DNA of 64,000 bases. Origin: a bacterium UBP8_UBA817. GTDB lineage: Bacteria > Margulisbacteria > Marinamargulisbacteria > SXXA01 > SICP01. The notes beneath the pieces are model-generated. The model saw nothing but the letters and a program-made list of their open reading frames with translations, searched no databases and had not been told where the DNA came from. The stretch lies in NCBI GenBank assembly GCA_945898045.1, contig CAMDGG010000006.1:5393-69392 (forward strand), in the 5' to 3' direction. A program made the translations under genes and the position numbers. The first letter of the stretch is position 1; each line of letters opens with the position of its first letter. Below, one piece after another: positions 8,677 to 28,500 of this stretch.

Positions 8677-9294
8677 ATGACACAAGCAAAAACAAACATC
8701 CTAAAACAAACAACCCTCACAATCCTCAGTGTCATTGTATTAGGATCTTGTTTCAACATTTCTTGTGCAAATGACATCGATACAACCAAAAGCACCCTAA
8801 CAATAGACACACTCCTTCACTTTGGATCTGGTTTCAACGATACATTTCAAGCCCCTAGCGGCAGCAAAGATTCCGTTAACCTCAACAACAAAACCAACTC
8901 ACTATCCATACTCAGCGCCGGCTTTAAATCACTCGGACAAGAAATGGATCAATATAATGCTGATACACGAAGTGCAGCAAATGGTACTGGACCAGCTAGA
9001 GTAACCACTCCCCCACTTGTCTACCCCAATCCTTTCCGCCAACAAACTGGTGCAAAATTAGGGTATGGATTAGCTGGAGAAATCAATGAAATTGAAATTC
9101 AAATCTATGACATGATGGCTCATTTAATCACAAAAAAGACATTCAAAGATCAAGGTGCAAGACAAGGTTACAACCTTATTGATATCAATCTACAAACATT
9201 CGATGGCTATTTTCTTTCTGCGGGCGTTTATTTTTTCCTCATCCTAAACGACGGGAAAGTACTAGCTAAAGGAAAGGTTGCGGTGATCCCATGA
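8677..9294 (+). CDS. small secreted protein with T9SS-type (Por_Secre_tail / FlgD-Ig-like) C-terminal sorting domain
   Basis: N-terminal signal peptide with a possible lipobox (VLGSC). The C-terminal ~90 aa (LVYPNPFRQ...IEIQIYDMMAHLI...SAGVYFFLILNDGKVLAKGKVAVIP) follows the YPNPF ... GVYF ... K-x-V pattern of type A T9SS sorting domains. Confidence 0.6.
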   Translation: MTQAKTNILKQTTLTILSVIVLGSCFNISCANDIDTTKSTLTIDTLLHFGSGFNDTFQAPSGSKDSVNLNNKTNSLSILSAGFKSLGQEMDQYNADTRSAANGTGPARVTTPPLVYPNPFRQQTGAKLGYGLAGEINEIEIQIYDMMAHLITKKTFKDQGARQGYNLIDINLQTFDGYFLSAGVYFFLILNDGKVLAKGKVAVIP

Positions 9295-10236: not shown

Positions 10237-13200
10237 GTGAAACGAAAATTATTACTTGCTCTTCTAACTTGGTTTACTCTCTTCGCAACAGCTGAATTTG
10301 CGCAAGTTACCTTTACATTTCAAGGCAGTTTAATTAGGGCAGACAAAACGTTTGTAAATGGCACCTATAACAACGTAAAAGTGGGCGTATACTCCGGTGC
10401 AGATCAAAACGTTTCCCCCGTTTGGTCAGAACTACAAAATGGTGTAGTTTTTGAAACGGGTCGTTTCAGCATCCTTGTGGGCAACACAGATCCCATAAAC
10501 AATCCTCTGAAAATCGAAACGCTCAATATTAACAGCCCTTACTTAGGACTTACGATTAATGGCAGTGAGTTTTTCATTCCATTTACCTCAACACCCTACA
10601 GCTTGCGAACAAAAGTAGCAGAAAAAACAAATGCCGTATCAGCACAGTATATAGTAGGAACCTTTACAAAGCCTGTAACAATAAAATCCACATTAACCAT
10701 TACCAGCGACAACATAACGCTACTAAAAACCACCCCCTTAAAACAGGTTGGAATCGGAAAAGACAACCCTCTAACAAAAATCGTAAATGGCAAAACAGTG
10801 GCCGACGCAACGCTTGACGTCAACGGCCCCGTCAATAGTCAGACAGGCTTCAAAATAAATGGTGTCGACATCGCAAGCACTTTGTCATGGAAACAAAATA
10901 AAATTGTTACAAAAAATATTTATTATGCAAGTGGGAACGTGGGCATCGGACTACAAAACCCTAGCTATGCTCTAGACGTGCAAGGAACACTGAATGCAAC
11001 ACAAATATTACTTAAAGGGAAACGTCTTTCCGCCGGACTAGATTGGCAGCCCCAAACCAACGCAACACAAAATTTATACTTCAAAAAAATAGAAGATAAT
11101 CGTGTAGGCATAGGAAGAGTAGACCCGCAACAATCACTGGATGTTAATGGCAGTTTGGCTGTATCAAGCAATACTACGGATCAAACAGCCCCACTAAACG
11201 GCATGATCAGAATGTCACCTACCAACAATGAAATACAGGGATTCAGAAACAACCGATGGATTCAGTTAACAGGATTAAGAGGGCAAGGCCAAAAAAATCA
11301 AATTAGTTTCTATACGAATCAATTTGCACTTTCTGGATACACACCCTTTGCATGGAGATCACAAACCAACATGTTAGGCATTGGAATTGCGATACCCCAG
11401 GCGCAATTACATCTATTAAAAACAGAACCCCTAGCCCCTTCCCTTTATATTGGTACAAACACAAATCAAGCTTTATTGGTTGTTACCGCAAATGGAAACG
11501 TTGGAATTGGAACCGCCACACCCAACCAAAAATTGGTTGTAAAAGGAACGCTAGATGCAGAAGAGCTAACCGTAAATGGACTAAACTTATCATTGGCCGT
11601 CTCGAATTCATCCGTATGGATATTAAATAAACAAAGTAGTTTATTTTACAAATTAGGAAACATAGGAATTGGAAAAATCGACCCGAAAAGCCCCCTTACA
11701 ATAGCGCAAAGAATCAACCATCCTGACGAAGACCCGGCATTAACATTTCGTCAAAGCAATGGCAACAGTTATACAATGGGCATTAGTAGTAAATCTCCCG
11801 GCATTTTCCGAGTAGAACGAGGCGACAAATTAAATACCTCCACGCCACTATTTGTCATGAAAGACACCTCCTTTGGTGTGGGACTTACAGATCCATTAGC
11901 CATACTCCATGTCAGCGGTAATGAAGGAGCTGCTTTCAACGGTAAATTCTTTGGTGTAGTTAATGAGACCTTTCCCGAAGTAGACTCCGCAGGAAAACCG
12001 ATTCTTCCACAGGTAGTGCAGGAAGGCGCTGGAACACGGTTTATTTGGCATCCATTACGTGCAGTTTTACGAGCTGGAACTGTGACTGGCAATCAATGGG
12101 ACAACATTAATCTAGGTAAATTCTCTATCTCATTTGGATTAAACAATACAGCGAGCGGTAATTTCACAACGATATTAGGAGGGCAAAATAACCTCGCAAC
12201 AGGTGCTTACGCCACCATATTAGGGGGGCAAAACAACCAAGCCCTGGGCGATTTTTCTTTAGCCGGTGGATATCAGGCTAAAGCACTTCACCACGGATCG
12301 TTTGTGTGGGGAGATCGCCTGGGCCAAGCTCTGAGGACAAACGCTCCTAATCAATTTTTGATCAAAGCATCCAATGGCATAGGGTTCGGAACAAATCAAA
12401 CTTCAACTGATGGCAATAAAAGTACATTAACGATTAAAAAACCAACCCCAAGTGGTAATATTTTTCAAATAGTAGGCCGAAATCTAACCACAGACATCTT
12501 CCAAATAAGCACATCCGGCAATGCCATGATAGGCTCTAAAGCCAAAACAACCGCAGGATTAAGTGTCATCGGGAAAACTCAATTCGGAAAAAAACTAGTC
12601 ACCCCTACGATAAATAGCTTTTTAACAATTTCTAGTGAACATCCTACACAAGCTATTTGGGTTTCAAATAGTGATGGAGATATCGTAACAACGCCAAATT
12701 TCATTCTTACTAGCTCTGGAAACATGGGAAGCAACATCATCCCTTTGGCCTCCGTTATTACGCAGTTTAAAAACGGAACAATTCAAATAGGAAAAGGCGG
12801 TATATTGGGCGACAGCTATGAACTCCCCGACGGAACAAAGATCGGAACACAAGCTATTGAAGTCTGGGGTATAGACTCACCCCCCAACCTCTATTTTACA
12901 ACCGGAAATGTGGGCATTGGCACAACACGCCCTACAAGTCTTTTAACAATTTCAAACGTTGCAAGCAAACTCTTTCAATCACCAAAAAATCCTGCCATAA
13001 CTTTCTCGAAAAACACTACCTCATACACATTAGGTATAGAAAACAATTCACCAGACATCTTCAAAATAGTATCCGGGTATGACCTAATACAAAGCCCAAA
13101 AATTGCGTTTAAATATTTGGATAATTCCATTGGAAGAATGGGCATAGGAACAGAGAATCCAAGAGCAGTATTTCATGTAAACAACGCTGCGATCTTAGGA

Positions 13201-16200
13201 AAAACAATATCAATTGCCACATCAAATAACGATACTAGATACAACTTGATCGCCGGATCAGCCTCTTTCAGGCCTCTATTTTTAAACAAACAATTTACAT
13301 CCGCATCTGGAACACCCTGGACTACAACTAGAAATGCCAGCCTCTATTTTACAAACGGGAAAATTGGAATTGGCACAACTAGACCATCAACAGATATCTC
13401 AATAGCAGGAAGTATAAACGCAACCTCAGTCCGTATTAAAGATGCATTCATAGTCAAAGAAACCACAACTTTAACTCGACTCGATTTCTTAAATGACAAT
13501 GGGCTCCCATTAAGATTGGGAGTGAGTGCTTCCAAGTTACGCCTAGGTGATCTATCTATTTCAGACATCCTCTCCAGAGGAACAAATACAGCACAAACAA
13601 AAGGACCTGTAGTTTTATGGCAAAGCGCCAATGTCTTAGGTGACACACAACTAATATGGGCTTCCGATGCAGCGCACCCTGATCAAAGTGGAACACTCAC
13701 CGCAACTAAAAACGTTCGTATTCCTACCACGTTAACTAAACCCAATTCATTCCAACAAACAACCTTAGTACAAGTAGGGTCTGCCAATATAACCAATGCC
13801 CTCAACATTTCATCAGACCTTACTCATAACGGTAACATTTCTAATTCAGAGTCTCATAGCAGTCAAAAAATAACGCTAAATCTGGGACCAGGTGATTGGG
13901 ACGAGAATAACAATTTCACAGGAATCGATATCAAGATAGTTAATAAAGCCAATGCCAGTGGAGCCACCAATTTCACAACACAATCCCAAGCGATAGGATT
14001 AAATATTGATGTGAGTAAAGTTAAGACTCAACAGACAGGAGAACCTGGATTCAATTTTGCTGCCATTTTTAATGGGAACGTCGGTATCAATAAATTTCCA
14101 TCGCCAACTACACCAACCAGAGCCATATTGGATGTCAAGGGCATTGTAGAGGCCGACTCATTTATCATTTCAAAAAGACTCAGCATCACCACCCTTAACA
14201 TAACTGGCGACGTCTTAACCGTAAAACAAACCCGCCCTATTACCATCGGTCTTCCAAAACCAACCAGCCCGACATACGATCTTCTTATACAAGGAACCGT
14301 AGAGGCGACAAATGGCAGTATTGGGCTCTTAGAAACAAAAACACTAAATACCGCGCAAAACGCACTTCTTGTAAATCAAGCTGGTCAAATAGGTCTTGGC
14401 ACCACATCGCCGGAAGCCGACTTTCACATCAAAAAATTATTTACAACCACAACAGACAAAGATTACTTTGCAAAAATTTCACACAGCACAATTGACATTC
14501 CAATCTCCCCCAAAAAATTAACAACGAACTTTACGGGTTTTGACATCGCTCTGAACACAAAAACGAACAATAAAATAGGACAACCACAAACACCTCAAAC
14601 AGCAACAGGCTTGTCTATCAACCTTAACAATATGGCTTCTAATGCAAACGGTACAATCATTGGGATTTCCAGCAAAACCAATAAAACTCAAAGTAAAGCA
14701 AAATCAGCGCTATTTCTCGGAGGAAATGTTGGCATTGGGGTTACTAACCCAACAAGCACACTCGCTATCGTTGGAACAATCCGAGCAAAGGCCGTAGATA
14801 ACACCAACTTATTAACCCAACAAGAAGCAGCGTCATTTAACAGACTCGTAGTAACCGATAGCGCAAACTTTAAAGGACCCGTCACTGCAAACACCCTCTA
14901 TGCAACAAGCATTATCACCAAGACCGATCAACTTACTATTAACGACAGCATCACGCTCCCTACAATCGCATTAACTATTACAGGCACACCAGGATTATTA
15001 ACAAGTAAAGCACTTTCAATCACAGCAAATACAACAGCCAACGCACTTACTCTCATCGGAAAATTGACAGGCACCTCGGCAACATTTAATAATCTCATCT
15101 TAACCAATTCTCTTACAACCGCTACACTCAATATCTCGCGTTTACAACAAAACGACACTATTGAACTTAATGCAGCACAAGCCAACTTCAACTCACACAC
15201 AATAGTTGCAAATGGAATCGTTGGTATTGGCATCACAAACGCAACAGAACCTCTCTCCATCGCAAGTACTAAAAAAACAGCTACAATCTTACGTGTTCAA
15301 AACCTCTCAGATATCAAGACTACAGCGGCGGGAATTCTGCTAGTACCTGACATCAAAACCGACCAAAATACAGGATCCGGCATTGTAGCCATTAAGGTCA
15401 GCGATACAGGATCAGCTGCACGAGGCTCAGACCTTGCTTTCATTACAGACCCCATCAATGGAACACAATCAGAACGCGCACGTCTTACGCAAGCAGGAAA
15501 CTTTATTATTGGCACCAGAAATGCCTCAAGCAAGTTATATGTCCATCAAACTTCTGTAATACAAAATACGGCGACATTCAATACAAAAGTCACTACAAAA
15601 GCGCTGACCTCTGCAAGTGATATCAGCATTAAAAAAACAACTATATTTAATAATGGAGCAGAAATACATGCCCTTTTGACTCAAAAACCTATCCTCATTA
15701 AATTAACTACGCTTGGCTCTGTCACATCTGGAACCAGCGCACTAAGCCCTTCATCGTCTGGAAAATTAATTTACAAAACAATCTTGGATGATAATTCGGT
15801 TGTTGCCTCTGACATCACTTCTCTTGTAACTGGATCCGTTGGACGACTCCCTTATTATACGAGCAGTCATAAATTGACAGATACATCCTCTTTAACATGG
15901 GTAACACAAAATATATCCAGCATTCCCTACAGTACCCTCGTTATTGGGAAAGTAAGTTCTGCAAGCATGGCCATAGTCGCAACGCTAAATAATACATTAA
16001 TCGGCAGCCCAACAGCTGAAGACATCCAACTAACATTTAAAGATCGCACTTCTGATATTTCAACATATGGAGGAAGAAAGTTCTACGGTTTACAAATTAT
16101 CGCTTCCAGAAACACCAATGCCAGTGTAGCCCCAGGAGAAACAACAAGAGGCCTATATGTTGACCTCTCTTCACTTAAAGCTGAAAGCACTAACTTCCAA

Positions 16201-19200
16201 GGTGACGGAGCCATACTGAAAGGAACTAAATACGTAGCACTTTTCAAAGGAGGAAATGTCGGTATTGAAACAACGTCTCCAAACGCAACACTACAAATTC
16301 AACCCAAAGATAATATAGACTCTTTTCAAATTGACACCAAAACTCAGGCCGGAACAGTCATTACCAAAGCACTCATGGTAAATATAAGTGGAAATAGTGG
16401 TATAGGGGCCACTTCAAACGCCAAACTCACGCTTAAATTATTAAACACAACCTCATCGGAAACCGCCGTACTAATCACTGATTCAAGTAAAAACCCTCTA
16501 TTCACAATAAAAAACAATAATAAAATAGGAATTGGTACAGCTGCACTTTCAACCGAATTTAATATAGCTGATCCAATAAAAGCTAAAACACATACCGTAC
16601 AAACGTTATTAGCAAATACATTAACCATTAACACCGATAAATTAGTCGTTCAGAGCAACGGTAACGTGGGAATTAGCAACACAAACCCACAAGCACAACT
16701 CCATCTAATCCAAAAATTGACGCAACAGCCCCCAGCCAACTTTATTATGGAAAACCTGGGCCTTACAATTGGATCCACCCCCCTAAGAAAAACGCTAACA
16801 GGTCTTTCCTTAACTATTACATCTAACGCTTACAATTTATTAGGCCTCGATGGCATCCCGAATAAAGGGACCGGCATTAAATTTTCTGCACCCTCCTTAG
16901 CCCTTAGTACCACATCAACGTTAGTAGGCATCAACGTTAACGTACCGAAGGGGACAAGCTCCAATAGCACCGTCATCCGAGGTGGCAACGTAGGAATAGG
17001 CATTACAAATCCAAGCGCAACACTTCATATAGCCGGCACCTTAAGAGTAAGCGGAAACATTCTTCAAACAAAACCAGGAAATTTGTCTATTCCTGGAGTA
17101 ACAGCAAATAAATTGGCATCAACAGGAACAAACTCATTTAACACCGTTAAAGTACTCAGTCCATTTAAAAAAGTAGTGGTCACCGATAAGCTAGTCACAA
17201 ATAGATCTTCTGTGTCACTTCTACAAAAAGCACCCACAACAAATGTCATCTTATTAACCAGTAACTCCATTGCGCGTTTTCAAAAAGCGGCAACAGGAAC
17301 AACCAATATCCCACAGAAAAGTGTATTCAATATCGCCTCACAATTACCAACACAAACAGCTATGACACTTCAAAAAGGAACCGCTATCGTCACAAATATG
17401 GCTACTCTTCCCGTAAGCAGAGGTCTCGCAACACTCCAATATGACAGCACATTGGATGTAACCCCTGTACCCGCATTAATTATCGGAACAAGTCTGACCC
17501 CAAATGCACTCGTGATCAGCAATACAGGTCAAGCCAGCATCGGAACAGCTTCAAGTCTTGCAAAATTAACAGTCATTGAAGGTAGTTCCCGATCAACAGC
17601 AAAAGCCCTCTCCATAATCAATACTTCAGGAACACCCCTCTTAAGCGTGATGAATGATACAAACGTAGGCCTAGGAACAAAATCTCCCCAAGCAATAGTC
17701 CATATTGTCGGTCAAAGTACTCAGTCCACGCTACTAAAATTAGCCTCTTCTACATCTGCAAACATTCTGACTATGATAGGAAACGGTGCCATTGGTATCG
17801 GTACAACAGCACCAGATAGCGCACTACAAGTTCAAGGTACTTTTAAAATATCATCGGCCCCCACACCCAACCTCATTTCCGTATCTAATGCAGGCAATGT
17901 AGGCTTTGGGAAGGACGCAAACGCTAACTATCCTCTTAACCTAGATAATAATATGCGATTAGGAAATAGCACAGATGGAACACTTCCTAACTATTTGACT
18001 AATCAGTCAAGAAAAAATAGAGGTTTTATAACACAAACGGGCAGTGACCACACGTTCTTTGGACTAAGAGAAACAGTCACTGGAAATAGCAATTACGCCC
18101 CTGTCGTTTATTGGGGAAGCAGCGATACGGATGCCTTAACATTCGAAACCAGTGCCGGCCTTGAAGCCGCGAGATTAATCAATAAATCAATGAGTATAGG
18201 TGGTATCACACCAAGCGCTACATTACATATCAGCAATATCAATAACCGTACGGCCCCTTTATTAACTTTAAAAACTGCAAAATTCCCAAATATGCTCACC
18301 ATCACAGCCAATGGTTCCATAGGAATTGGAACCGCCCCCACAATCAACGCAGATGTCTTTGTTTCAGGATCCGTCTTCGCCAAAGGTCTAAAACAACCTC
18401 CAGGAGGCACAGAACTAACAGCCCCCACCATTAACATTGTCAATTCAACAACAACCTATTCAAGCTTTTCAGTATCCTCAAATATTCTGTCAGACCTAGC
18501 ACAAACAGCAGAAAGAATAACCCTACAACTTGATAAAGACTCAACCGGAACACTTATCGGAAAAAGCATCACACTATTATCATCTGTTACACAAACCAAT
18601 GTAGGGGATCTAGCTACTACTCAGCGCGGGCTTCGTGTAGATATCAGCAATCTTTTTATCGACAAAAATCCTGCATTTGGAGTAAACACCGCACAAAAAT
18701 TTGCAGCTACCTTTAAGGGCGGTAATGTAGGCGTAGGCACAAAAACACCCAAAACATGGTTTGAAGTAACTACCAGTAAAAATGCCCCTGGCAATATTGC
18801 CAGCTTCAGAGCAACTCCCAACATAGTTCCCGGAGGAATCAATATAAAACAAGCCGACCTTACCTTCACAAGCTATCCAACCGTTAATATTTCCGGACAG
18901 AAATTATCTGTCCCTACAGACTCGTTCAAAACCATCGCGTACACACTACCAAATGGCCAACTTTTCAACGGAGGTAGCACATTCTACGTCACAGACGACA
19001 TCGCAAAAGCCATTATGATAAAACTAAAGGGGGGAGCAACACCAATTATTGATAGTGTCACCAGGAACGTTAACCAAACAACTAAAACAACGTTGAAATC
19101 GGCTATTACCAATTATTCAACCAACGGGTACTTTGTAGACTACATCACAACACAAAATGTCTTATCTGTTCTCTTACCCTTTATAGAAAAACACACCATC

Positions 19201-20598
19201 GCACTACAACACACAGATCTCAACAACAATTCAACAAGTTACAACGTACTGAGTTTTAGCACCGGACTTGTGGCAAGAAGACCCAATATCGACAGTCCCC
19301 TCAACACAACTAAATTATTACAAAATGCCTTTAAGTTTACTGGCAGCATGGGTATCGACGTCCAAAAAGCAGATATACCCTTACAAAACACCTCATTGAC
19401 CGTCAGTGGCAATATTAGAATTGGCACGATTCATAATACCTTCAGCGTAGAACCTGTTGCAGTTGGACCCAGCCTTCGATTCTCAGGAGGCTATCTTGTC
19501 AGCGACACAGCGCTCAATAGTGACAATAAAGAAGCCTTTTCAATCCTCCGCAACAATATCGAAGATGGCATCTCTCAATTTCGCATTACAGTCGGTGCAG
19601 AAAGTACCAACCCAAATGCGCTATTCACTGTTGGGTACAATACAAAAGGACGCATTACAGAATTTAGTGGCGGTACTTGGAAAAATGTACTCAATGTGCT
19701 CGCGACAAAAAATGGAACAACCCCTGTTGGACGCGTTGGTATAGGCACAACAGCACCACGGGCTACACTACATATTGTCGGAACTGGCAATTTTAACGAG
19801 CTTACCGCTAACCCCACTACTATCGCCCAGACAGCCTTAGTTCTATTCGAAAACCAATCCTCTTCAGGCGCACAAACATTGGCCATCAAAAACAATACAG
19901 ACTCCGCACTAACTACAGAAGCAAACTTCATTACCTTCCTAAGTTCGACGACCAATATCAGCACAACATCTACGCTTGGATCTATCGAAGGCAATGCTAG
20001 CGGTGGCGTCCAATTCACATCACCAGAGGGTGACTACGCAGAGTACATGCCCAAAGAAAATCCTGAAGAAAAATTCGCACCAGGAACAGTAGTCGGCATC
20101 CACAAAGGAACTGTCAGTAAAAAGACCCACGGGGCAGATCAAATCATGGTTATCAGTTCCTCCCCAATTATCATAGGAAATGCAACAAAAGAAACACAAA
20201 AGAATCACGCCCTAGTCGCCTTCTTAGGACAAGTCCCCATCAACGTTACAGGTGCCGTACAGGCAGGCGACATTCTCATTGCATCCGGTCAAAACGACGG
20301 TTTAGCCATTGGTGTTCCTGCGGACAAAATCACAGCCTCTCAAATCGATCTTATTCTAGGCCGCGCTTGGGAAAGTACCCACAAAGAAAATTCTAAATCT
20401 ATAAAAGCAGCCATCGGTTTTTCTTACGGATTACAAATTTTTGGCAAACAACTCTCTAGTATCAAAACAATGGCATCTAGTGTGCAAGAGCTACAAAAAG
20501 AACTCGACCAAAAACAAAAATACTATTTAGACATCCTTGAAAAACGTCAAAACAAGATCCAACTTCTCAAAGAAAAAACAGGGATGGTCACGCCATGA
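10237..20598 (+). CDS. giant secreted fibre/adhesin-like repeat protein, tail-fibre-like (paralog A, 3453 aa)
   Basis: Uninterrupted 10.4-kb ORF with a GTG start a few nt after GAGGA. Signal peptide MKRKLLLALLTWFTLFATAEFA. About 30 copies of GNVGIGTxxPxxxLxVxG. A YadA-head-like GxxNxAxG segment. The C-terminal GDYAEY domain and terminal coiled coil are both conserved in the second giant ORF. Confidence 0.85.
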   Translation: MKRKLLLALLTWFTLFATAEFAQVTFTFQGSLIRADKTFVNGTYNNVKVGVYSGADQNVSPVWSELQNGVVFETGRFSILVGNTDPINNPLKIETLNINSPYLGLTINGSEFFIPFTSTPYSLRTKVAEKTNAVSAQYIVGTFTKPVTIKSTLTITSDNITLLKTTPLKQVGIGKDNPLTKIVNGKTVADATLDVNGPVNSQTGFKINGVDIASTLSWKQNKIVTKNIYYASGNVGIGLQNPSYALDVQGTLNATQILLKGKRLSAGLDWQPQTNATQNLYFKKIEDNRVGIGRVDPQQSLDVNGSLAVSSNTTDQTAPLNGMIRMSPTNNEIQGFRNNRWIQLTGLRGQGQKNQISFYTNQFALSGYTPFAWRSQTNMLGIGIAIPQAQLHLLKTEPLAPSLYIGTNTNQALLVVTANGNVGIGTATPNQKLVVKGTLDAEELTVNGLNLSLAVSNSSVWILNKQSSLFYKLGNIGIGKIDPKSPLTIAQRINHPDEDPALTFRQSNGNSYTMGISSKSPGIFRVERGDKLNTSTPLFVMKDTSFGVGLTDPLAILHVSGNEGAAFNGKFFGVVNETFPEVDSAGKPILPQVVQEGAGTRFIWHPLRAVLRAGTVTGNQWDNINLGKFSISFGLNNTASGNFTTILGGQNNLATGAYATILGGQNNQALGDFSLAGGYQAKALHHGSFVWGDRLGQALRTNAPNQFLIKASNGIGFGTNQTSTDGNKSTLTIKKPTPSGNIFQIVGRNLTTDIFQISTSGNAMIGSKAKTTAGLSVIGKTQFGKKLVTPTINSFLTISSEHPTQAIWVSNSDGDIVTTPNFILTSSGNMGSNIIPLASVITQFKNGTIQIGKGGILGDSYELPDGTKIGTQAIEVWGIDSPPNLYFTTGNVGIGTTRPTSLLTISNVASKLFQSPKNPAITFSKNTTSYTLGIENNSPDIFKIVSGYDLIQSPKIAFKYLDNSIGRMGIGTENPRAVFHVNNAAILGKTISIATSNNDTRYNLIAGSASFRPLFLNKQFTSASGTPWTTTRNASLYFTNGKIGIGTTRPSTDISIAGSINATSVRIKDAFIVKETTTLTRLDFLNDNGLPLRLGVSASKLRLGDLSISDILSRGTNTAQTKGPVVLWQSANVLGDTQLIWASDAAHPDQSGTLTATKNVRIPTTLTKPNSFQQTTLVQVGSANITNALNISSDLTHNGNISNSESHSSQKITLNLGPGDWDENNNFTGIDIKIVNKANASGATNFTTQSQAIGLNIDVSKVKTQQTGEPGFNFAAIFNGNVGINKFPSPTTPTRAILDVKGIVEADSFIISKRLSITTLNITGDVLTVKQTRPITIGLPKPTSPTYDLLIQGTVEATNGSIGLLETKTLNTAQNALLVNQAGQIGLGTTSPEADFHIKKLFTTTTDKDYFAKISHSTIDIPISPKKLTTNFTGFDIALNTKTNNKIGQPQTPQTATGLSINLNNMASNANGTIIGISSKTNKTQSKAKSALFLGGNVGIGVTNPTSTLAIVGTIRAKAVDNTNLLTQQEAASFNRLVVTDSANFKGPVTANTLYATSIITKTDQLTINDSITLPTIALTITGTPGLLTSKALSITANTTANALTLIGKLTGTSATFNNLILTNSLTTATLNISRLQQNDTIELNAAQANFNSHTIVANGIVGIGITNATEPLSIASTKKTATILRVQNLSDIKTTAAGILLVPDIKTDQNTGSGIVAIKVSDTGSAARGSDLAFITDPINGTQSERARLTQAGNFIIGTRNASSKLYVHQTSVIQNTATFNTKVTTKALTSASDISIKKTTIFNNGAEIHALLTQKPILIKLTTLGSVTSGTSALSPSSSGKLIYKTILDDNSVVASDITSLVTGSVGRLPYYTSSHKLTDTSSLTWVTQNISSIPYSTLVIGKVSSASMAIVATLNNTLIGSPTAEDIQLTFKDRTSDISTYGGRKFYGLQIIASRNTNASVAPGETTRGLYVDLSSLKAESTNFQGDGAILKGTKYVALFKGGNVGIETTSPNATLQIQPKDNIDSFQIDTKTQAGTVITKALMVNISGNSGIGATSNAKLTLKLLNTTSSETAVLITDSSKNPLFTIKNNNKIGIGTAALSTEFNIADPIKAKTHTVQTLLANTLTINTDKLVVQSNGNVGISNTNPQAQLHLIQKLTQQPPANFIMENLGLTIGSTPLRKTLTGLSLTITSNAYNLLGLDGIPNKGTGIKFSAPSLALSTTSTLVGINVNVPKGTSSNSTVIRGGNVGIGITNPSATLHIAGTLRVSGNILQTKPGNLSIPGVTANKLASTGTNSFNTVKVLSPFKKVVVTDKLVTNRSSVSLLQKAPTTNVILLTSNSIARFQKAATGTTNIPQKSVFNIASQLPTQTAMTLQKGTAIVTNMATLPVSRGLATLQYDSTLDVTPVPALIIGTSLTPNALVISNTGQASIGTASSLAKLTVIEGSSRSTAKALSIINTSGTPLLSVMNDTNVGLGTKSPQAIVHIVGQSTQSTLLKLASSTSANILTMIGNGAIGIGTTAPDSALQVQGTFKISSAPTPNLISVSNAGNVGFGKDANANYPLNLDNNMRLGNSTDGTLPNYLTNQSRKNRGFITQTGSDHTFFGLRETVTGNSNYAPVVYWGSSDTDALTFETSAGLEAARLINKSMSIGGITPSATLHISNINNRTAPLLTLKTAKFPNMLTITANGSIGIGTAPTINADVFVSGSVFAKGLKQPPGGTELTAPTINIVNSTTTYSSFSVSSNILSDLAQTAERITLQLDKDSTGTLIGKSITLLSSVTQTNVGDLATTQRGLRVDISNLFIDKNPAFGVNTAQKFAATFKGGNVGVGTKTPKTWFEVTTSKNAPGNIASFRATPNIVPGGINIKQADLTFTSYPTVNISGQKLSVPTDSFKTIAYTLPNGQLFNGGSTFYVTDDIAKAIMIKLKGGATPIIDSVTRNVNQTTKTTLKSAITNYSTNGYFVDYITTQNVLSVLLPFIEKHTIALQHTDLNNNSTSYNVLSFSTGLVARRPNIDSPLNTTKLLQNAFKFTGSMGIDVQKADIPLQNTSLTVSGNIRIGTIHNTFSVEPVAVGPSLRFSGGYLVSDTALNSDNKEAFSILRNNIEDGISQFRITVGAESTNPNALFTVGYNTKGRITEFSGGTWKNVLNVLATKNGTTPVGRVGIGTTAPRATLHIVGTGNFNELTANPTTIAQTALVLFENQSSSGAQTLAIKNNTDSALTTEANFITFLSSTTNISTTSTLGSIEGNASGGVQFTSPEGDYAEYMPKENPEEKFAPGTVVGIHKGTVSKKTHGADQIMVISSSPIIIGNATKETQKNHALVAFLGQVPINVTGAVQAGDILIASGQNDGLAIGVPADKITASQIDLILGRAWESTHKENSKSIKAAIGFSYGLQIFGKQLSSIKTMASSVQELQKELDQKQKYYLDILEKRQNKIQLLKEKTGMVTP
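10741..19782 (+). repeat. array of ~30 degenerate in-frame G-(N/K/R)-(V/I)-G-I-G-T-x-x-P-x-x-x-L-x-V-x-G motifs with a ~2.1-2.5 kb super-repeat
   Basis: Examples are GNVGIGLQNPSYALDVQG, GNVGIGTATPNQKLVVKG, GNVGIGTTRPTSLLTIS, GNVGIGVTNPTSTLAIVG, GNVGIGITNPSATLHIAG and GRVGIGTTAPRATLHIVG. The larger module GL-x-V-D-x-S...(K)(Y/F)AA-x-F-x-GG-x-VGIGT recurs near 13981, 16145 and 18620. Confidence 0.85.
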
Positions 20599-21988: not shown

Positions 21989-22578
21989 CCATAGCCATTA
22001 GCATTCTATCTCTATTAATCGCCGTTATCTTCCATGAAGTTGCACATGGGTATGTGGCCTATCGCTTCGGAGATCCTACGGCCAAACTTCAAGGCCGAAT
22101 TAGTCTCAATCCACTAGTCCATATTGACTGGCTAGGTTCTATTATCTTACCTGGCATTCTTATTCTTTCAGGAGCCCCCTTCCTCATTGGATGGGCAAAA
22201 CCAGTGCCCATCAACCCCAATTATTTTCAAAACCCCCTTCGAGACATGATGTGGGTAGCCATCGCAGGTCCACTCACCAACATCACGATAGCCCTCATTG
22301 CAAGCACCCTTTTAAAATTCCATCTCAATAGTGTTTTCGACTATTTTTTAGCCGTATCAATAAGCATTAACATCGTACTGGCACTCTTCAACCTTTTTCC
22401 AATCCCGCCACTCGATGGATCCCGCATATTAATGTACATAGCGCCAAAATCTCTCCAACAGTTTTTAACATCCATAGAGCCTTACGGGCTCGTTATTCTA
22501 TTTTTTCTAGTCTATCTCAACGTCTTTGAGAAGATCTTGCCGTTTCTGATTCACCCCATATTGGAGGCACTATTATGA
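21985..22578 (+). CDS. site-2 protease family (M50) intramembrane metalloprotease, short form
   Basis: HEVAHGYVA zinc motif, multiple TM helices, and a NLFPIPPLDGSR motif. Confidence 0.8.
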   Translation: MTIAISILSLLIAVIFHEVAHGYVAYRFGDPTAKLQGRISLNPLVHIDWLGSIILPGILILSGAPFLIGWAKPVPINPNYFQNPLRDMMWVAIAGPLTNITIALIASTLLKFHLNSVFDYFLAVSISINIVLALFNLFPIPPLDGSRILMYIAPKSLQQFLTSIEPYGLVILFFLVYLNVFEKILPFLIHPILEALL

Positions 22579-25500
22579 AATGCAAGTTTTTCCAGAAAAG
22601 ACTCGATATGAAAAATAAGAAAATCAAAAAAAATAAGGGTATAATTGTGAAAACACTAATGAAAACAAAAACGTTAATCACCCAAGCCCACCTATGGATA
22701 AGCATCCTCTTCCTAGGGTTACTCACAACCGTAAGCTTTGCTGATACGCCAATGGTTTTAACCTTCCAGGCAACCCTAGCTACACAACAAGGGGGACTTG
22801 TACAAGGTAGAAACAAAGTAACCGTAGGGATATACCCAGGAAATTCAACTGTTGCCACATGGCTTGAACCTCACGAGAATGTACTCTTCATAAATGGCAG
22901 CTGTAGTATTATCCTCGGAAACATACAGCCACTCACAGCAGACCATCTCAATATTACAAATCCGCGCTTCGGCCTCCAAGTAGGCAATAATTCTCAAATT
23001 GCCTACTTTCCTGTTCCTGCCACACCTTATTCTATCCAAGCTAAGGTAGCAGACTCTGCATTGGCCGTTTCAGCCAATAATATTTCAGGCACCTTCACAA
23101 ATCCTGTTAGGATAAATGCAAATCTATCTGTAGGAGATACGACATTATATGCCAATCCAACATCAGGAAAAGTAGGGATTGGAACCACCGCCCCAACCTA
23201 TAAGCTAGACGTTGCGGGAATTATCAATGCGACAGGATTCAAAATCAATGGCACCGACTTAGAATCATCCTTATCATGGCAAAAAAATGCCAATAGCGGC
23301 CTATATTATACCCAAGGAAATGTAGGTATAGCCACACAAAATCCAAAGTCGCTTTTAGAAGTTGCAGGAACAATCAATGCGCAAGAAATACGTATAAAAG
23401 GCGTTGAACTTGCAACCCTACTTGCCACACAACTTGCATGGCGTGAAGGAGCTAGGCCTAAAGACATTTATTTTAATGACGGTACCCAAGAAGGTAATGT
23501 AGGTATTGGCACCTCCCAACCTCGCACAAAATTAGATGTTGCAGGCGCTATTCGTGTAGGAGAAGCCCAAAGCAATGCATTGGGAAGTATTCAATACAAA
23601 AACAATGATTTTCAAGGATTTACAAGAACAGGATGGACTTCTTTTGCATCTTTAACTGGCATTGGCTCAGCCAATCAAATTCCTTTCTGGACAAATTCTA
23701 CAGAACTCACCGGAAGTAATAACTTAGTCTGGGATCGCACAAGAAATAGATTAGGCATAGGAACAAGTAATCCCACTGCACAACTAAGCATGACTGCAAT
23801 TGACGCCAATCGCGCACTCGTACGCATCGACAGCTCATTAGGTAAATCTTTATTTTATGTAGGAAGTCAAAATATAGGAATTGGCACATCAACCCCCAAT
23901 AGTAAATTGTCCGTAAAAGGAGTCGTTGATGCGGAGGCCTTTTTAGTTAAAGGCGTTCCTATAGCACAAGCCTTATCTTCAAGCTCATTTTGGATTTTCC
24001 AAAATGACGGCCGTATCTACTATGACAGAGGTAACGTAGGAATCGGAACAACTAATCCTAAAAATCTTTTAGAATTAGCAGCATCCCCCTCACACGACCC
24101 AATTATCACCTTTGATATTGCAAGCACGCCAGCTTTTAGTTTAGGGATATCAGAACTCAATCCTGACGCCTTCATTTTAGGCAAAGGCGGAGATCTTAAA
24201 AACCCTATCTTTGTTTTTAATGGCAATAAAATTGGTGTAGGTCTAACCAATCCAAGCGCAAATTTACACGTCAGTGGAAACAATGGCGTTCTGTTTACAG
24301 GGAATTTAAACAATGGTGTCCCATTAGGCATCAAAGGGGAAGGCACACGTCTTGTTTGGCATCCCGGAAAAGCAGCATTTAGAGCGGGTTACGTACAAAG
24401 AAAACAATGGGACGACGAAAATATTGGTTTATATTCAGTCGCAATGGGATACAACCCTTCCGCCAATGGGCTTGCCTCCGTAGCAGCAGGTGGATATGAA
24501 AGTGATGCCGCTGGAAATTACGCAGTCGTTGCAGGCGGCTTTCAAAATAAAGCCAAAGGAATACATAGCTTTGCAGCAGGACACCAAGCTCAGGCCCTCC
24601 ATTCTGGAGCCTTTGTCTGGAGCGATTATTCCCCAACAGCTTCAGAAACCAGTTTTAAATCTATCGCTTCTAACCAATTTGTACTACGGGCGTCAAATGG
24701 TGTTGGTATTGGCACAAACCTAACAGCAGGAAATGGACTTACCGTAGCATCAGATCTTAATGATACTTACATCATAAATGCTCTTAAACCAAATGGCACA
24801 AGCGCCATGATCGTCAATGTATCCGGAAATGTTGGGTTGGGAACAACTGAACCAGGGATTTCGAGGCTTGCTGTCATGAACGGAAAAGTTGGCATTGGAA
24901 CAACGACCCCAATCGCTCAATTAACTGTCTCAGGAAATACTCCCGAAGGATTTCTATTCGTTGCCTATAAAAACAATGGTCAACCCGGCTTATTTATAAA
25001 AAATGATGGAAAAATCGGTCTCGGAAAACCTCTAAGCTATGTCTTTCCAGACGATGTCTACTTGGCCATTTCAGGTGCCGTAGTAGGGAATGCATTTGCA
25101 ATCCAAAACCCCAACGGAAGTACAACCCCAATAGAAAGTAACCCTGGATCACCTTGGGCAATCCCCTCTGAAAATCTTAGTAGCACGTTCTTTAATAAAG
25201 GCTTTGTAGGAATAGGAACCCGAGCACCCGCAAGTCTATTAGAGTTATCTAACGCAGCCTCAGCAACTCGAAATCCAGTCATAACATTCGACACAGATGG
25301 CGTAAAACGATTTAGTTTAGGCACCACTGCCAATGTCTTTACCATTCAAAAGGGCGGCAATATCAATAGTAAAAACCCGCTTTTCGCGCTCACAGATAAT
25401 GGCAGTGGTGGCGGCGGTCTTGGCATTGGAATTGGCTACAAAACACCTAGCGCGTCCTTACATGTCAGTGGCAATTCTATGTTTACAAGTAAAGTCGTTA

Positions 25501-28500
25501 TTGCAACCACCAATACAGCACAGATCTACGACTTAACTGTAGCAGGAGCAGTGAATGTCAAAACACTCTTCATAAACGGGGATCAATTTATCCCCCAACC
25601 TAACCCATGGAAAACAAATAACCTCGACATCTACTACACAAGCGGAAACGTGGGGATCGGAACACGAACACCTTCTGCAAAACTTGAAGTTATTGGAACC
25701 GTGTCCGCAAACCAAATCATTCAAAGCGGTACATTTACGCTCAATGGAAGCTTAACGGCAAATAAATTAAGACTCAAAGATACCAGTGCCAATGTAACCC
25801 AATACGGAGAACTTGCAGTCACAAACGAAGAACTGGTTTACAAAGATCCAGCTGGCAATCTCAAGGTTATTTCGTCGCCTCTAAGAAGAGATTCAAGCGC
25901 AACCCTTGATGGAAACCTTGCGTATTGGATCGATAGGTCAACCGTTGGTGTCAGCAATATTGTATGGAAACATGCTACGAACGAATTAGTGGTATCAGGT
26001 AATCTAATCGTTAATGCCTTAGCGCAAGAAACCGACGGATTCACAGCACGCTCCCACATTTCAATGGGACTTCCTAATGCACTCGAACTCACAAGCACCA
26101 TTAATCATGGCGGAGATTTAAGAAATGTCAGGAGCTACACAGGGCAAAACATCCTCGTAAACGTACAAAGAAATTGGGGAAATATTAACACCCCCGTATC
26201 AGTAAGAGGCCTAGATATTGTTATAAAACAAACTGATAACAACCTGTTTTTAAACAGAGCAAGTGCTATTGGCCTCAACGTAGATGTATCCAAAGTAAAT
26301 GTCGATGTCGCTGGCGGTGGAAAAAAAGCAGCCGCTATCTTCACAGGAGGCTTTGTTGGCATTGGAACAACAACCCCACGTGCAGCACTTGAAGTAGTAG
26401 GAACCGTTTCAGCAAATTATTTTAATCTAACCGGCGGATTAACTGTACCTGAACTCTTTATTAATACAGATGCTCTCGTTGCCTACAAAGACCCATCCAC
26501 ACAAGCACCCCGAGTGGGCGTAGGTACCACAACCCCCAGAACAGAATTAGATGTTGTAGGTACCGTCTCTGCAAACGTATTTAATGTCGCAAACAATCTG
26601 ACAGCAGCTATTCTCAATGTCAATAAAGGTGCTCTCTTTGTAAATAGTGCCGGAAATGTTGGAATTGGAACCACACAACCCAATGGCCAAATTGAATTAA
26701 AAAAAACAATTACCACTACACCAAGCACCCCTTTCTTTGCTGAAAAAATTGGTGTCACGATAGACGGTGCTGGAAAAGATCAAACGTTTGCCTTTAATAA
26801 AATTTTAAGTGGCTTAGATATTACATTAGATTCAGGAACAGGAAGTCAAATCGGAAGTGGGAAAATCGCAACAGGTGTGAGTGTTAATTTAACAAATCTA
26901 GAACTGGATCCCGCAAGTACCGCGGTAGGGCTTAATGTAAATGTAACGGGTACAACAGGTAAACGATATGCCGCTATTTTTACAGGAGGTCGAGTAGGCA
27001 TCGGTATCACAGAACCCCAAGCAGAACTACATGTAAGCGGCAGTATTAAGGCCGACAACTTGATACTTGAAGGTACATTAGAAGCAAATATAGCCACGTT
27101 CAACAAGTTAACAATCAATAGAACAGGTTTATTTAACGGATCCGTTACTATTAATACACTTGCAGTTCTTGGGAAACTAAGTGCAAACAGTCTTACGCTT
27201 AGCACCCCTTTAACAGCAGCTCAAGGAACCTTTTCAACGCTCAACGCCCAAGTTGCATCCTTCAACAAAGTATCCATCAATACACTGCGCGTAAACAATA
27301 TAAATGGTCCCTCTGCAACAGCCACGCTTAACACCCTCACGGTGACAGAAAAAACGCGTGCACAATCGGTTGCAATCACCAACAGCCTCACCCTCTTAAA
27401 TGCAACCATGAATATTAATAGCAATACGTTAGTAATAACACCCAGCAAAAATGTAGGAATAGGCACCAGTACGCCGCTAACAACACTTCATATCGAAACT
27501 ACAAGATCTAGTACATTTGCGGCAGACGATAGCAATACGTGGAACGCCATTCGTATTCAAAACAACAACAATGCCATAAATTCAGCAGCGTCAATTTTAT
27601 TGGTTCCTGACGAACGTCGCCCCTCATTTAGCATAGGGTCTGGCATCTCCGCAGTCAGAAATAATGGTAACGCAAATTCTGGATCAGACTTGGTTTTTGT
27701 CACCGATAGAAATAGTGGTGCTCCCGTCGAAGGAATGCGCATTACTGAAGCTGGAAACATAGGTATTGGTACCACAACACCAAGAGCCCAACTTGATGTA
27801 CAGGGAACAGCTTGGTTCAATAGCACCGTAACAATAAATGGCACATTAGGTGTAGGAACTCTAAATAGCACAGGGAATTTAACAATTAATACACCCGCTG
27901 GGAAAAGCATCTTTCAAAATACCGTTTCTGCAAATGCCACTATACAAATACAAAATGGGTTATTCTTCAAAGGCACAACACCACCTACAGAACAAGCAGG
28001 TTATGGCGCACTATATATGCTCAGCACAGACAAAAATCTGTACTACCAAAATCCATCCGGTACCAGCATTAACTTAACCGCAGCCTATACCGGAAAAAAT
28101 GGCGTGATCCCATTCTTTAATTCCAAAAATAGTCTCGATGATACAGCACCTCTTTTCTGGAACAACACCAGCAAGACACTAACAGTCGGAACCAGCAATA
28201 TCGTGAGCAATGTTAAAATTATAAGCGTCATCGATAACAGTACCAATCCCACTGAATTTTCAGGGCAAAGTATATCCCTTGGATTTGGAAACCGTACAAC
28301 AGCTGGCACCTCTGTATTTTCAGGATTAAACATACAACTCAAAGGACAAACGCCAAACGATCCCTTTACATTTGGACGCTTAGCACAAAACGAAGTTGCA
28401 ATCGGATTAAATGTAGATGTTAGTAACCTGGCTGCAAGACGCACCAATTCATTGGGAAGTAGTCTTACAGGATTTAAATATGCCGCCATATTCACAGGAG

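What the first reader, a model, noticed from the sequence alone, without database searches (positions are those of the whole stretch)
19981..20598. C-terminal domain resembling the phage Peptidase_G2 intramolecular-chaperone (autocleavage) module plus a terminal coiled coil
Both giants end with a conserved ~200-aa block. In A it reads SIEGNASGGVQFTSPEGDYAEYMPK...GTVVGI...ADQIMVISSSPIIIGN...ALVAFLGQVPINVTGAVQAGDILIAS...GLAIGV...ILGRAWE. In B it reads EIEGSGGNGVRFKTAGADYAEYLPK...GDIVGV...IMVRS...ELIAFFGQVKVNVSGPAHKGDFILPS...GVAVS...ILGRVWE (about 31725-32336). From memory, the DYAEY(F/M) start, the xGVVS..P..xGN stretch and the LLGQVxVxV...GD pattern match the IMC autoproteolytic domain of the phi29 pre-neck appendage family (Pfam Peptidase_G2). 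In that family the domain assists trimer folding and is then cleaved off. Each giant then finishes with a heptad-rich ~60-aa coiled coil (…VQELQKELDQKQKYYLDILEKRQNKIQLLKEK / …LKNELETLRNKQQDLSTQFEEKLEAQNKEIDALILKLKK). A cellular, Sec-exported 3000+-aa protein using a phage-type folding chaperone would be notable.
Basis: partly seen in the sequence, partly recalled or inferred. Interest (0 to 1): 0.7.

Follow-up and report, generated by a model that had tools for sequence, protein, structure and literature searches.

The report
Phage-type self-chaperone ending giant bacterial fibres
Two 3,000+-residue surface-fibre proteins of a Margulisiibacteriota-like bacterium each end in a compact relative of the phage phi29 tail-spike 'auto-chaperone' plus a coiled coil; the module is real and probably helps three chains fold together before being cut off, but it is common in bacteria and has a known precedent.

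Summary
Both giant ORFs (A 10237-20598, B 22575-32336) end in the quoted ~200-aa block (33% identity over the last 400 aa, E 2e-61).

The Peptidase_G2 (phi29 gp12 D4) reading is supported:
- Pfam PF11962 is the only hit (A 25.3-27.4 bits against cutoff 25; B 20.1).
- A family profile finds gp12 and phage Dpo31 D4 in PDB.
- hhalign against gp12 gives 94% probability.
- The AlphaFold model (pLDDT 84) matches gp12 D4.
- DYAEY aligns on the first residue of the released phage domains, and D-x-A-E is kept in 142 of 143 diverse relatives.

Differences from gp12: a ~45-residue segment is missing, and a ~50-residue helical tail is added.

The novelty claim is overstated. The module occurs in at least 7,288 protein clusters, almost all found in cellular genomes. 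Bdellovibrio MAT fibres already show cellular, signal-peptide fibres with a self-cleaving chaperone (S74 type). The giants share the MAT fibre repeat and, weakly, the MAT N-terminal domain.

Cleavage, trimerisation and ATP dependence are untested.

Verdict: new variant of a known kind; moderate interest.

The parts
10237..20598 (+). Giant fibre protein A (3,453 aa; GTG start). It has an N-terminal signal-peptide-like segment and 21 GxGTxxP...L.V fibre repeats.
   Evidence: ORF list. 21 repeats against ~1.4 expected. The repeat matches the Bdellovibrio fibre structure 8ojn, E 2.7e-4. There is an end-to-end homolog (34% identity) in a UBP8 MAG, L007. The signal peptide was judged by eye (MKRKLLLALLTWFTLFATAEFA|Q).
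10285..10644 (+). MAT_N-like beta-rich N-terminal domain of A (aa 17-136); putative cell-proximal anchor.
   Evidence: NCBIfam NF053851 Bdello_MAT_N, E 5.8e-5, 22.9 bits, below the cutoff of 60. The same model hits 5 of 9 other carriers tested, with E from 9e-5 to 1.5e-9. The A and B N-termini are 37% identical, E 2e-64.
19981..20031 (+). Pre-junction segment of A (SIEGNASGGVQFTSPEG). It holds the conserved strand V-x-[YF]-x-[ST]-x-x-[AG] that ends at the predicted scissile bond G3265|D3266.
   Evidence: Conservation at positions -8, -6 and -4, which the seed pattern did not impose. Residue -4 is S/T in 119 of 142 representatives. The segment lies inside the Pfam G2 match.
20032..20046 (+). 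DYAEY junction motif of A (D3266-Y3270): predicted first residues of the released domain and putative catalytic Asp/Glu.
   Evidence: It aligns with residue 1 of 3gqh (DFAEYFES, gp12) and with A|DYAEYFE of Dpo31 D4 (PMC13317679). D-x-A-E is present in 142 of 143 representatives.
20032..20418 (+). Tandem beta-tulip core of the A C-terminal domain (compact gp12-D4-like auto-chaperone).
   Evidence: AlphaFold2 pLDDT is about 90 or more over most of this stretch, with two 5-strand units. Foldseek matches 3suc and 3gqh, prob 1.00, TM 0.56 normalised to target. BFVD phage fibre C-termini match at E 4e-10 to 1e-8. hhalign gives 94%.
20425..20583 (+). C-terminal long helix / putative coiled coil of A (~53 aa).
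   Evidence: Single helix, model residues 173-225, pLDDT 96-98. A crude heptad score found a/d hydrophobic occupancy of 0.58 over the last 42 residues, with no chance baseline. A helical tail of 15-97 aa follows the core in all 143 representatives. It is absent from gp12 and from PA5oct gp359.
22575..32336 (+). Giant fibre protein B (3,253 aa as called; the real start may be Met29 at nt 22659, just before the signal-peptide-like segment). It has 26 fibre repeats.
   Evidence: ORF list. 26 repeats. 88% identical over its full length to a Ca. Margulisiibacteriota MAG protein, L074, with the same gene order.
31776..32192 (+). DYAEY junction (31776-31790, D3068; predicted cut A3067|D3068) and beta core of the B C-terminal domain.
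   Evidence: Pfam PF11962, 20.1 bits, E 4.5e-4. Homology to A. Alignment A1.
32193..32333 (+). C-terminal helical / coiled-coil tail of B (~47 aa).
   Evidence: Sequence with a heptad-like pattern. It aligns with the A helix in A1.

Best explanation
Each giant is a secreted, trimeric, MAT-like surface fibre. Its last ~187 residues are a compact homolog of the phi29 gp12 D4 (Peptidase_G2) intramolecular chaperone: two beta-tulip units followed by a long helix.

Proposed mechanism (inferred, not shown):
1. After Sec export the C-terminus emerges last.
2. The three helices associate as a coiled coil.
3. The tandem beta-tulips form a trimeric cap that sets the register of the three chains.
4. The fibre then folds from the C-terminus towards the N-terminus.
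5. Once the trimer is correct, the conserved Asp/Glu of the DYAE junction cut the chain (A: G3265|D3266; B: A3067|D3068). This releases a ~20.4-kDa fragment and leaves the mature fibre tip.

What is shown: homology, fold, C-terminal position, and conservation of the junction. What is inferred: trimerisation, folding direction, self-cleavage and the cellular compartment.
For: - PF11962 is the only Pfam hit in both C-termini, and 20 of 23 family members hit it.
- The family profile finds Dpo31 D4 (E 3.8e-5) and gp12 (E 1e-4) in PDB. DYAEY falls on residue 1 of the released gp12 fragment.
- hhalign against gp12 gives 94.1% probability, E 1.2e-7.
- The AlphaFold2 model (pLDDT 84) matches 3suc and 3gqh and phage fibre C-termini at E ~1e-9.
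- The model's two 5-strand units fit the published tandem beta-tulip description of gp12 D4 (10.1101/216911).
- D-x-A-E is kept in 142 of 143 relatives that share at most 50% identity with each other.
- The domain ends within 15-97 residues of the C-terminus in all 143 representatives re-analysed.
- It is attached to very different fibre bodies: MAT-like repeats, YadA-head repeats, and lengths from 279 to about 3,500 aa (up to 4,111 aa in the deeper search). That pattern fits a generic assembly module.
- Dpo31 D4, with the same A|DYAEY junction, is absent from the mature protein (PMC13317679).
- Cellular MAT fibres use the analogous S74 chaperone, with self-cleavage shown for one of them, Bd3182 (PMC10769870).
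- In S74 chaperones, folding is thought to start from a short triple coiled coil at the distal end (PMC4690869).
Against:
- B and most cellular relatives score below the Pfam cutoff.
- Structural similarity is moderate (TM 0.41-0.56, Foldseek E ~2e-3 against PDB).
- About 45 gp12 residues between the two beta-tulips are missing.
- From my memory of Xiang et al. 2009, release of gp12 D4 needs ATP. ATP is not available outside the cytoplasm, and the ATP-site residues could not be checked because the paper is not held.
- The residue before the Asp is Gly or Ala here, but Ser in gp12.
- How a 3,000-aa trimer would cross the outer membrane is unknown.
Confidence: 0.65

Rival explanations
1. The domain is a permanent C-terminal trimerisation cap. 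[quoted passage not shown]
For: Non-cleaved auto-chaperones exist in related adhesins (PMC3357383). The added coiled coil could serve as a stable trimer clamp. The gp12 segment between the tulips is missing, and the residue before the Asp differs from gp12. No ATP is available outside the cytoplasm.
Against: The near-invariance of Asp and Glu exactly at the position of the phage scissile bond (142 of 143) is hard to explain by a structural role alone. Dpo31, with Ala before the Asp, is processed.
Confidence: 0.2
2. The C-terminal domain is a sorting or secretion signal. The outer-membrane PorV/PorQ-like barrel encoded just upstream would recognise it, by analogy with T9SS C-terminal domains that are bound by PorV and then removed.
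For: A T9SS type A sorting-domain protein and a PorV/PorQ-family barrel lie directly upstream of giant A. The same pair is found upstream of the giant in L003, and the end of a PorV-like gene lies upstream of the giant in L007. The domain is always at the C-terminus.
Against: The giants have no Por_Secre_tail match. The fold is a tandem beta-tulip, not the T9SS Ig-like sandwich. The same domain ends phage fibre proteins, which are not secreted. Giant B has no such upstream pair.
Confidence: 0.06
3. The domain is the distal receptor-binding tip of the fibre, that is, an adhesin domain.
For: In MAT fibres the C-terminal end is the adhesive tip (PMC10769870). The beta-tulip fold is a protein-interaction module.
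Against: Receptor-binding tips are variable. This domain is conserved across phyla and on unrelated fibre bodies, with an invariant junction motif.
Confidence: 0.05
4. The resemblance to Peptidase_G2 is a chance or convergent match of short motifs, and the block is an unrelated conserved domain.
For: Pfam scores are at or below the cutoff and cover only profile positions 23-100 of 228. Single-sequence searches of PDB do not find gp12.
Against: Four independent lines agree: Pfam on 20 of 23 members, hmmsearch against PDB, hhalign at 94%, and Foldseek at prob 1.00. Both halves of the domain align, and some relatives hit Pfam positions 164-202.
Confidence: 0.03

Closest known systems
phi29 gp12 (pre-neck appendage) domain D4; Pfam PF11962 Peptidase_G2, IMC autoproteolytic cleavage domain (PDB 3GQH, 3SUC)
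   Same: - It sits at the extreme C-terminus of a trimeric beta-structured fibre or spike.
- The D-[YF]-A-E-Y junction lies at the start of the released domain.
- The conserved strands ..VIS..P...G and LLGQ..V.....V..G are shared.
- The tandem beta-tulip fold is shared.
   Different: - About 45 residues between the two tulips are missing.
- A ~50-residue helical tail is added; gp12 ends right after the beta core.
- The residue before the Asp is Gly or Ala, not Ser.
- The host protein is cellular, has a signal peptide and is four times longer.
- The compartment has no ATP.
Dpo31 tail-spike domain D4 of marine podovirus Carin-1 (PDB 28nb; PMC13317679)
   Same: It is the best PDB sequence match to the family profile (E 3.8e-5). 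It has an identical A|DYAEY junction, as in giant B. It forms a trimeric D4 that is absent from the mature protein.
   Different: It is a phage protein that carries the long gp12-type insertion and has no coiled-coil tail.
Bdellovibrio bacteriovorus MAT (mosaic adhesive trimer) fibres (Caulton et al. 2024, PMC10769870; PDB 8OJN)
   Same: - They are cellular fibres with signal peptides.
- They have a conserved beta-rich N-terminal domain; the match here is weak (NF053851).
- They share the same GxGTxxP...LHV fibre repeat.
- Most end in a self-cleaving intramolecular chaperone.
   Different: - Their chaperone is Peptidase_S74 (SDxxxK motif), which is not detected here.
- MAT fibres are about 1,000 aa, against 3,250-3,450 aa here.
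- The organism is Margulisiibacteriota-like, not a known predator.
Compact G2-like C-termini of phage fibre proteins (for example PA5oct gp359, and tail fibres of Atu_ph07 and Campylobacter phages CP220/CP20)
   Same: They have the same compact domain without the gp12 insertion: 31% identity over 134 aa by tblastn, and Foldseek E 4e-10 to 1e-8.
   Different: PA5oct gp359 has the junction YADLAERY and ends without a coiled coil. These are virion proteins made in the cytoplasm.

Membership tests
Pfam PF11962 Peptidase_G2 (phi29 gp12 D4-type auto-chaperone) | Profile match at or above the curated gathering score (25 bits) | tested here: inconclusive
   The A C-terminus scores 25.3 bits (405-aa segment) and 27.4 bits (229-aa segment), but 19.2 bits for the whole protein. 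B scores 20.1 bits. Ten other carriers score 0-21.7 bits. A passes and B fails on its own, but B is homologous to A (E 2e-61).
Pfam PF11962 Peptidase_G2 (phi29 gp12 D4-type auto-chaperone) | Asp and Glu of the D-x-x-E junction at the start of the released domain (gp12 DFAEY, Dpo31 DYAEY) | tested here: met
   A D3266/E3269 and B D3068/E3071 align with residue 1 of 3gqh and with Dpo31 Asp664. D-x-A-E is present in 142 of 143 representatives. That these two residues are catalytic is from my memory of Xiang 2009 and MEROPS G2, and was not verified here.
Pfam PF11962 Peptidase_G2 (phi29 gp12 D4-type auto-chaperone) | gp12-D4 fold (tandem beta-tulips) | tested here: met
   The AlphaFold2 model has pLDDT 84, with the core at about 90 or more. 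Foldseek matches 3suc (E 1.8e-3) and 3gqh (E 2.2e-3), prob 1.00, TM 0.56 on the target. The similarity is moderate, and the inter-tulip insertion is absent.
Pfam PF11962 Peptidase_G2 (phi29 gp12 D4-type auto-chaperone) | Located at the extreme C-terminus of a trimeric beta-structured fibre or spike | tested here: met
   It is the last 186-188 aa of both giants. It is C-terminal in all 143 representatives. The trimeric nature of the fibre is inferred from the repeat match to the 8ojn entry; that MAT fibres are trimers comes from PMC10769870.
Pfam PF11962 Peptidase_G2 (phi29 gp12 D4-type auto-chaperone) | Self-cleavage after trimerisation | not testable with these tools
   This needs expression, SDS-PAGE, mass spectrometry and mutants.
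Pfam PF11962 Peptidase_G2 (phi29 gp12 D4-type auto-chaperone) | ATP binding and ATP-dependent release of the cleaved domain | not tested
   The list of ATP-site residues is in Xiang 2009, which is not held. [quoted passage not shown] The 45-residue gp12 segment missing here could include part of the site.
Peptidase_S74 (endosialidase / T5 pb1 / MAT-S74 intramolecular chaperone) | Profile match to PF13884 and the SDxxxK catalytic motif | tested here: not met
   There is no S74 hit even at E <= 10. The residue before the Asp is Gly or Ala in A, B and the 77 genome-scan carriers (a choice the seed pattern imposed), and Ala/Gly in 106 and Ser in only 22 of the 142 profile-collected representatives with the motif. 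Lys is at +7, not +5.
MAT (mosaic adhesive trimer) fibre family | Signal peptide followed by the conserved ~130-aa beta-rich N-terminal domain (NCBIfam NF053851) | tested here: inconclusive
   A scores E 5.8e-5, 22.9 bits, against a cutoff of 60. B has no direct hit but is 37% identical to A there. Five of 9 other carriers hit, with E down to 1.5e-9. The signal peptides were judged by eye.
MAT (mosaic adhesive trimer) fibre family | Fibre built from GxGTxxP...LHV-type repeats, as in the solved MAT fragments | tested here: met
   phmmer hit to 8ojn, E 2.7e-4. 21 repeats in A and 26 in B, against ~1.5 by chance.
T9SS cargo protein | C-terminal Por_Secre_tail (type A) or type B sorting domain on the protein itself | tested here: not met
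   Pfam finds none in either giant. NCBIfam was run on A's C-terminal 229 aa and N-terminal 400 aa only and found none. Only the small upstream ORF 8677-9294 has one.

The most novel reading that the evidence does not exclude
These giants would represent a very large, almost entirely cellular and so far undescribed clade of compact G2-type auto-chaperones. Having gained a coiled-coil nucleator and lost the gp12 inter-tulip segment, the clade would work without ATP, in the periplasm or on the cell surface. In Margulisiibacteriota-like bacteria it would build micrometre-scale MAT-like fibres that are anchored or exported through a dedicated PorV-like barrel. That would point to a contact-dependent lifestyle (attachment, epibiosis or predation) in a phylum with no cultured free-living members.
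Probability: 0.25. Interest if true: 0.6.

Novelty: new variant of a known kind. Interest (0 to 1): 0.42.

Why it matters
If the module self-cleaves, two things would follow. The phi29-type (G2) auto-chaperone would not be a phage speciality but a widespread bacterial tool for assembling trimeric surface fibres, in parallel with the S74 type shown in Bdellovibrio. It would also have to work where there is no ATP. The module gives a precise, testable cut site (G3265|D3266 in A, A3067|D3068 in B) and a mature tip for 3,000-residue fibres in an uncultured phylum. It would also allow thousands of currently unannotated 'hypothetical' proteins to be labelled, because most score below the Pfam cutoff. 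The general principle, cellular fibres with phage-like intramolecular chaperones, is already established, which limits the surprise.

Tried and rejected
- Peptidase_S74 was rejected: no Pfam hit even at E <= 10, and there is no Ser before the Asp.
- Single-sequence phmmer of either C-terminus against PDB did not find gp12. It found only the fibre-repeat match to 8ojn and noise. A family profile was needed.
A trimmed 6-sequence core worked.
- A word-seeded homolog search with A's N-terminal 217 aa found nothing. The MAT_N link rests on weak NCBIfam hits only.
- An exact-sequence look-up of the PorV-like protein did not locate the window's source contig. The taxon is inferred from 88% identity of B to a Margulisiibacteriota MAG.
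- Xiang et al. 2009 (PMC2692858) is not held, and a search for the catalytic residue names found nothing relevant. The catalytic role of the Asp/Glu and the ATP dependence are therefore cited from memory.
- A prophage origin was rejected. The neighbours are NUDIX, a XerC/D-type recombinase, an M50 protease and YchF, and the gene order is shared with L074.
- A T9SS sorting domain on the giants was rejected (for A only).
- My first regular expressions for carrier ORFs and for repeats were wrong. They were corrected.


Full report
**Observation**

The window holds two very long + strand ORFs: A (10237-20598, 3,453 aa, GTG start) and B (22575-32336, 3,253 aa). The last ~400 residues of A and B align at 33% identity, E 2e-61.

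**Is it Peptidase_G2-like?**

- hmmscan of the two C-terminal ~400-aa segments at E <= 10 returns a single Pfam family, PF11962 Peptidase_G2. A scores 25.3 bits (27.4 on a 229-aa segment) against a cutoff of 25. B scores 20.1 bits. Only profile positions ~23-100 of 228 are covered. Peptidase_S74 is not hit.
- A database search with A's last 229 aa gave 21 metagenomic homologs, 12 of which already carry a precomputed PF11962 hit.
- In the 23-sequence alignment A1, 20 members hit PF11962.
- Single-sequence searches of PDB miss gp12. The A1 profile finds the chaperone domain D4 of phage tail-spike Dpo31 (E 3.8e-5) and phi29 gp12 (3gqh 1e-4, 6qz9, 3suc).
- In these alignments the family's DYAEY falls on residue 1 of the crystallised, released gp12 fragment (DFAEYFES). 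AFLGQVPVKV.G.V..GD falls on gp12 LLGQIAVRIDETVKQG.
- hhalign of A1 against the gp12 C-terminus gives 94.1% probability, E 1.2e-7. About 45 gp12 residues are absent from the window family, between the two conserved halves.

**Structure**

- An AlphaFold2 model of A's last 229 aa has mean pLDDT 84, with about 90 or more over most of residues 41-170. It shows two 5-strand beta units followed by one long helix (173-225, pLDDT 96-98).
- Foldseek against PDB returns 3suc and 3gqh (prob 1.00; TM 0.56 normalised to 3gqh). It also returns trimeric phage decoration or cement proteins, the phi29 head-fibre base and, at the noise level (rank 50, E 1.4, probability 0.25), MoeA.
- That mix is what the literature predicts. 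gp12 D4 is a tandem pair of beta-tulip domains sharing the fold of decoration proteins and MoeA (bioRxiv 10.1101/216911).
- Against predicted viral structures, the best matches (E 4e-10 to 1e-8, 21-28% identity) are C-termini of phage fibre-like proteins. Some are named 'preneck appendage protein barrel', others are Campylobacter phage tail fibres.
- tblastn against isolated phages finds only the PA5oct jumbo-phage group. There a 478-aa virion protein ends with a related compact domain (YADLAERYEAD...) and no coiled coil.
- gp12 itself ends directly after the beta core.

**Junction conservation**

- In 77 carriers from the genome scan, DYAE is invariant. The seed pattern imposed that, so it is not evidence on its own. 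Positions -4 (S/T, 76 of 77), -6 (aromatic) and -8 (V/I) were not imposed and are conserved.
- An independent set gives an unbiased figure. Among 143 representatives collected by profile, sharing at most 50% identity with each other, 142 have D-x-A-E (DYAE 92, DFAE 43). The preceding residue is A (58), G (48), S (22) or N (8). A tail of 15-97 residues (median 47) follows the core.
- Dpo31 D4 begins at Asp664 after an Ala, forms the gp12-like trimer and is absent from the mature protein (PMC13317679).
- The predicted cuts are G3265|D3266 in A (nt 20032) and A3067|D3068 in B (nt 31776). They would release fragments of 188 aa (20.4 kDa) and 186 aa (20.3 kDa).

**Distribution**

- A scan of one genome per GTDB species with a single junction pattern gave 291 confirmed matches. 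They are in Bacteroidota (many Saprospiraceae and Chitinophagales), Planctomycetota, Margulisiibacteriota, Ignavibacteria, Cyanobacteria, gammaproteobacteria and MAGs labelled Rickettsiales.
- The same approach on 2.9 million viral contigs gave 3 matches; the one inspected (L081) has a long gp12-type insertion and no coiled coil, and the match length of a second (L080) also implies an insertion.
- An exhaustive profile search found 7,288 cluster representatives at E <= 1e-3 and 1,779 at E <= 1e-30. In the 150 listed, the domain is at or near the C-terminus.
- Carrier length has a median of ~700-900 aa. Giants of 2,400-4,100 aa recur: 13 of 143 representatives are at least 3,000 aa.
- Most carriers fall below the Pfam cutoff, so they are probably unannotated.

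**What the giants are**

- B is 88% identical over its full length to a protein of Ca. Margulisiibacteriota MAG Baikal-deep-G208, with the same flanking genes: M50 protease, giant, 154-aa ORF, YchF.
- A has an end-to-end homolog (34% identity) in a UBP8 MAG.
- The neighbours are housekeeping genes, so this is not a prophage.
- Both giants start with signal-peptide-like segments (judged by eye).
- They carry 21 (A) and 26 (B) GxGTxxP...L.V repeats, against ~1.5 by chance. The repeat matches the crystal structure of a Bdellovibrio fibre fragment (8ojn, E 2.7e-4).
- A's residues 17-136 weakly match NCBIfam Bdello_MAT_N (E 5.8e-5, below cutoff). So do 5 of 9 other carriers tested (E down to 1.5e-9). 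The A and B N-termini are 37% identical.
- The giants are therefore best described as oversized MAT-like fibres.

**Prior art**

- Caulton et al. 2024 (PMC10769870) showed that Bdellovibrio has 21 signal-peptide-bearing, surface-displayed trimeric MAT fibres with an invariant N-terminal domain. Thirteen end in an S74 chaperone/protease domain, and self-cleavage was demonstrated for one of them, Bd3182.
- From memory, the abstract of Xiang et al. 2009 already suggested that bacterial adhesins might mature like gp12. The paper is not held.
- No paper in the searched library discusses PF11962 in cellular fibres.

**Mechanism proposed**

The coiled coil and the tandem beta-tulips nucleate and register the trimer. 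The fibre folds from the C-terminus towards the N-terminus. The DYAE junction then self-cleaves and the ~20-kDa cap leaves. For S74 chaperones, folding is thought to begin at a short distal triple coiled coil (PMC4690869), which makes the added helix a plausible nucleator.

Open points:
- whether cleavage occurs at all;
- whether release can be ATP-independent, since gp12 release is ATP-dependent (from memory) and these proteins are exported;
- how a 3,000-aa trimer reaches the surface.

**Rivals**

These are a permanent trimerisation cap, a sorting signal for the adjacent PorV-like barrel, an adhesive tip, and a chance match. They are weighed in the dedicated fields. The invariant Asp/Glu at the phage scissile position, and the module's presence on unrelated fibre bodies and in phage fibres, argue against all four.

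**Verdict**

The function is inferred. It is a compact, coiled-coil-tailed, predominantly cellular variant of a known kind of module. The claim of notability is weakened by its abundance and by the MAT precedent. Interest 0.42.

Noticed in passing
window 8677-9294 and 9291-10220 (+); also L003:134-1677 and L007:3-179: Directly upstream of giant A lie two genes: a 205-aa protein with a T9SS type A sorting domain (TIGR04183, 27.8 bits, above the cutoff of 23) and a 309-aa PorV/PorQ-family barrel (E 1.2e-13, full length, below cutoff). The same pair sits directly upstream of the A-like giant in a Margulisiibacteriota MAG (L003). In a UBP8 MAG (L007) the end of the PorV-like gene is visible; the locus stops before the rest. 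The pair could be an outer-membrane anchor or export partner of the fibre, outside the usual T9SS phyla.
   Followed up: partly
window 21985-22578 and 32366-32833 (+); also L074, L018, L009, L003, L004, L060, L001: A small M50-family membrane protease gene lies next to B-like giants in seven related loci, upstream or downstream. The acidic 155-aa ORF after B recurs after the giants in L074 and L018. This could be plain synteny among relatives or a functional link.
   Followed up: partly
window 10285-10644 (+): A's N-terminal domain weakly matches NCBIfam Bdello_MAT_N. The same weak hit occurs in Bacteroidota carriers of the C-terminal module. This suggests the MAT fibre family extends far beyond Bdellovibrio.
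   Followed up: partly
window 27030-27167 (+), giant B aa 1486-1531: There is a Pfam Bactofilin hit above cutoff (35.1 bits, E 1.7e-8) inside giant B. It probably reflects a right-handed beta-helical stretch of the fibre rather than a cytoskeletal protein.
   Followed up: no
window 28085-29755 (- strand), and other antisense ORFs of 100-190 aa inside both giants: Long antisense ORFs rich in 'VPIPT.P' lie inside the giants. They are the reverse-complement reading of the GIGT..P repeats and are almost certainly not genes.
   Followed up: no
window 22575-22660 (+): B's called start gives a 28-residue Lys-rich extension ahead of the signal-peptide-like segment. Met29 (nt 22659, MKTKTLITQAHLW...) may be the real start, although the extension is also present in L074.
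   Followed up: no
L069:8156-10591: A Sedimenticola MAG protein combines YadA-head repeats (a trimeric autotransporter adhesin module, E 3.7e-20) with the G2-like C-terminal module in place of a membrane anchor.
   Followed up: no
L015, L016, L021, L034, L036, L038, L048 (second carrier ORF 0.2-3 kb downstream of the matched one): Several Bacteroidota loci hold two carriers of the module in tandem. Bacteroidota versions also have a longer (~140-aa) helical extension after the beta core, instead of the ~50-aa coil.
   Followed up: no
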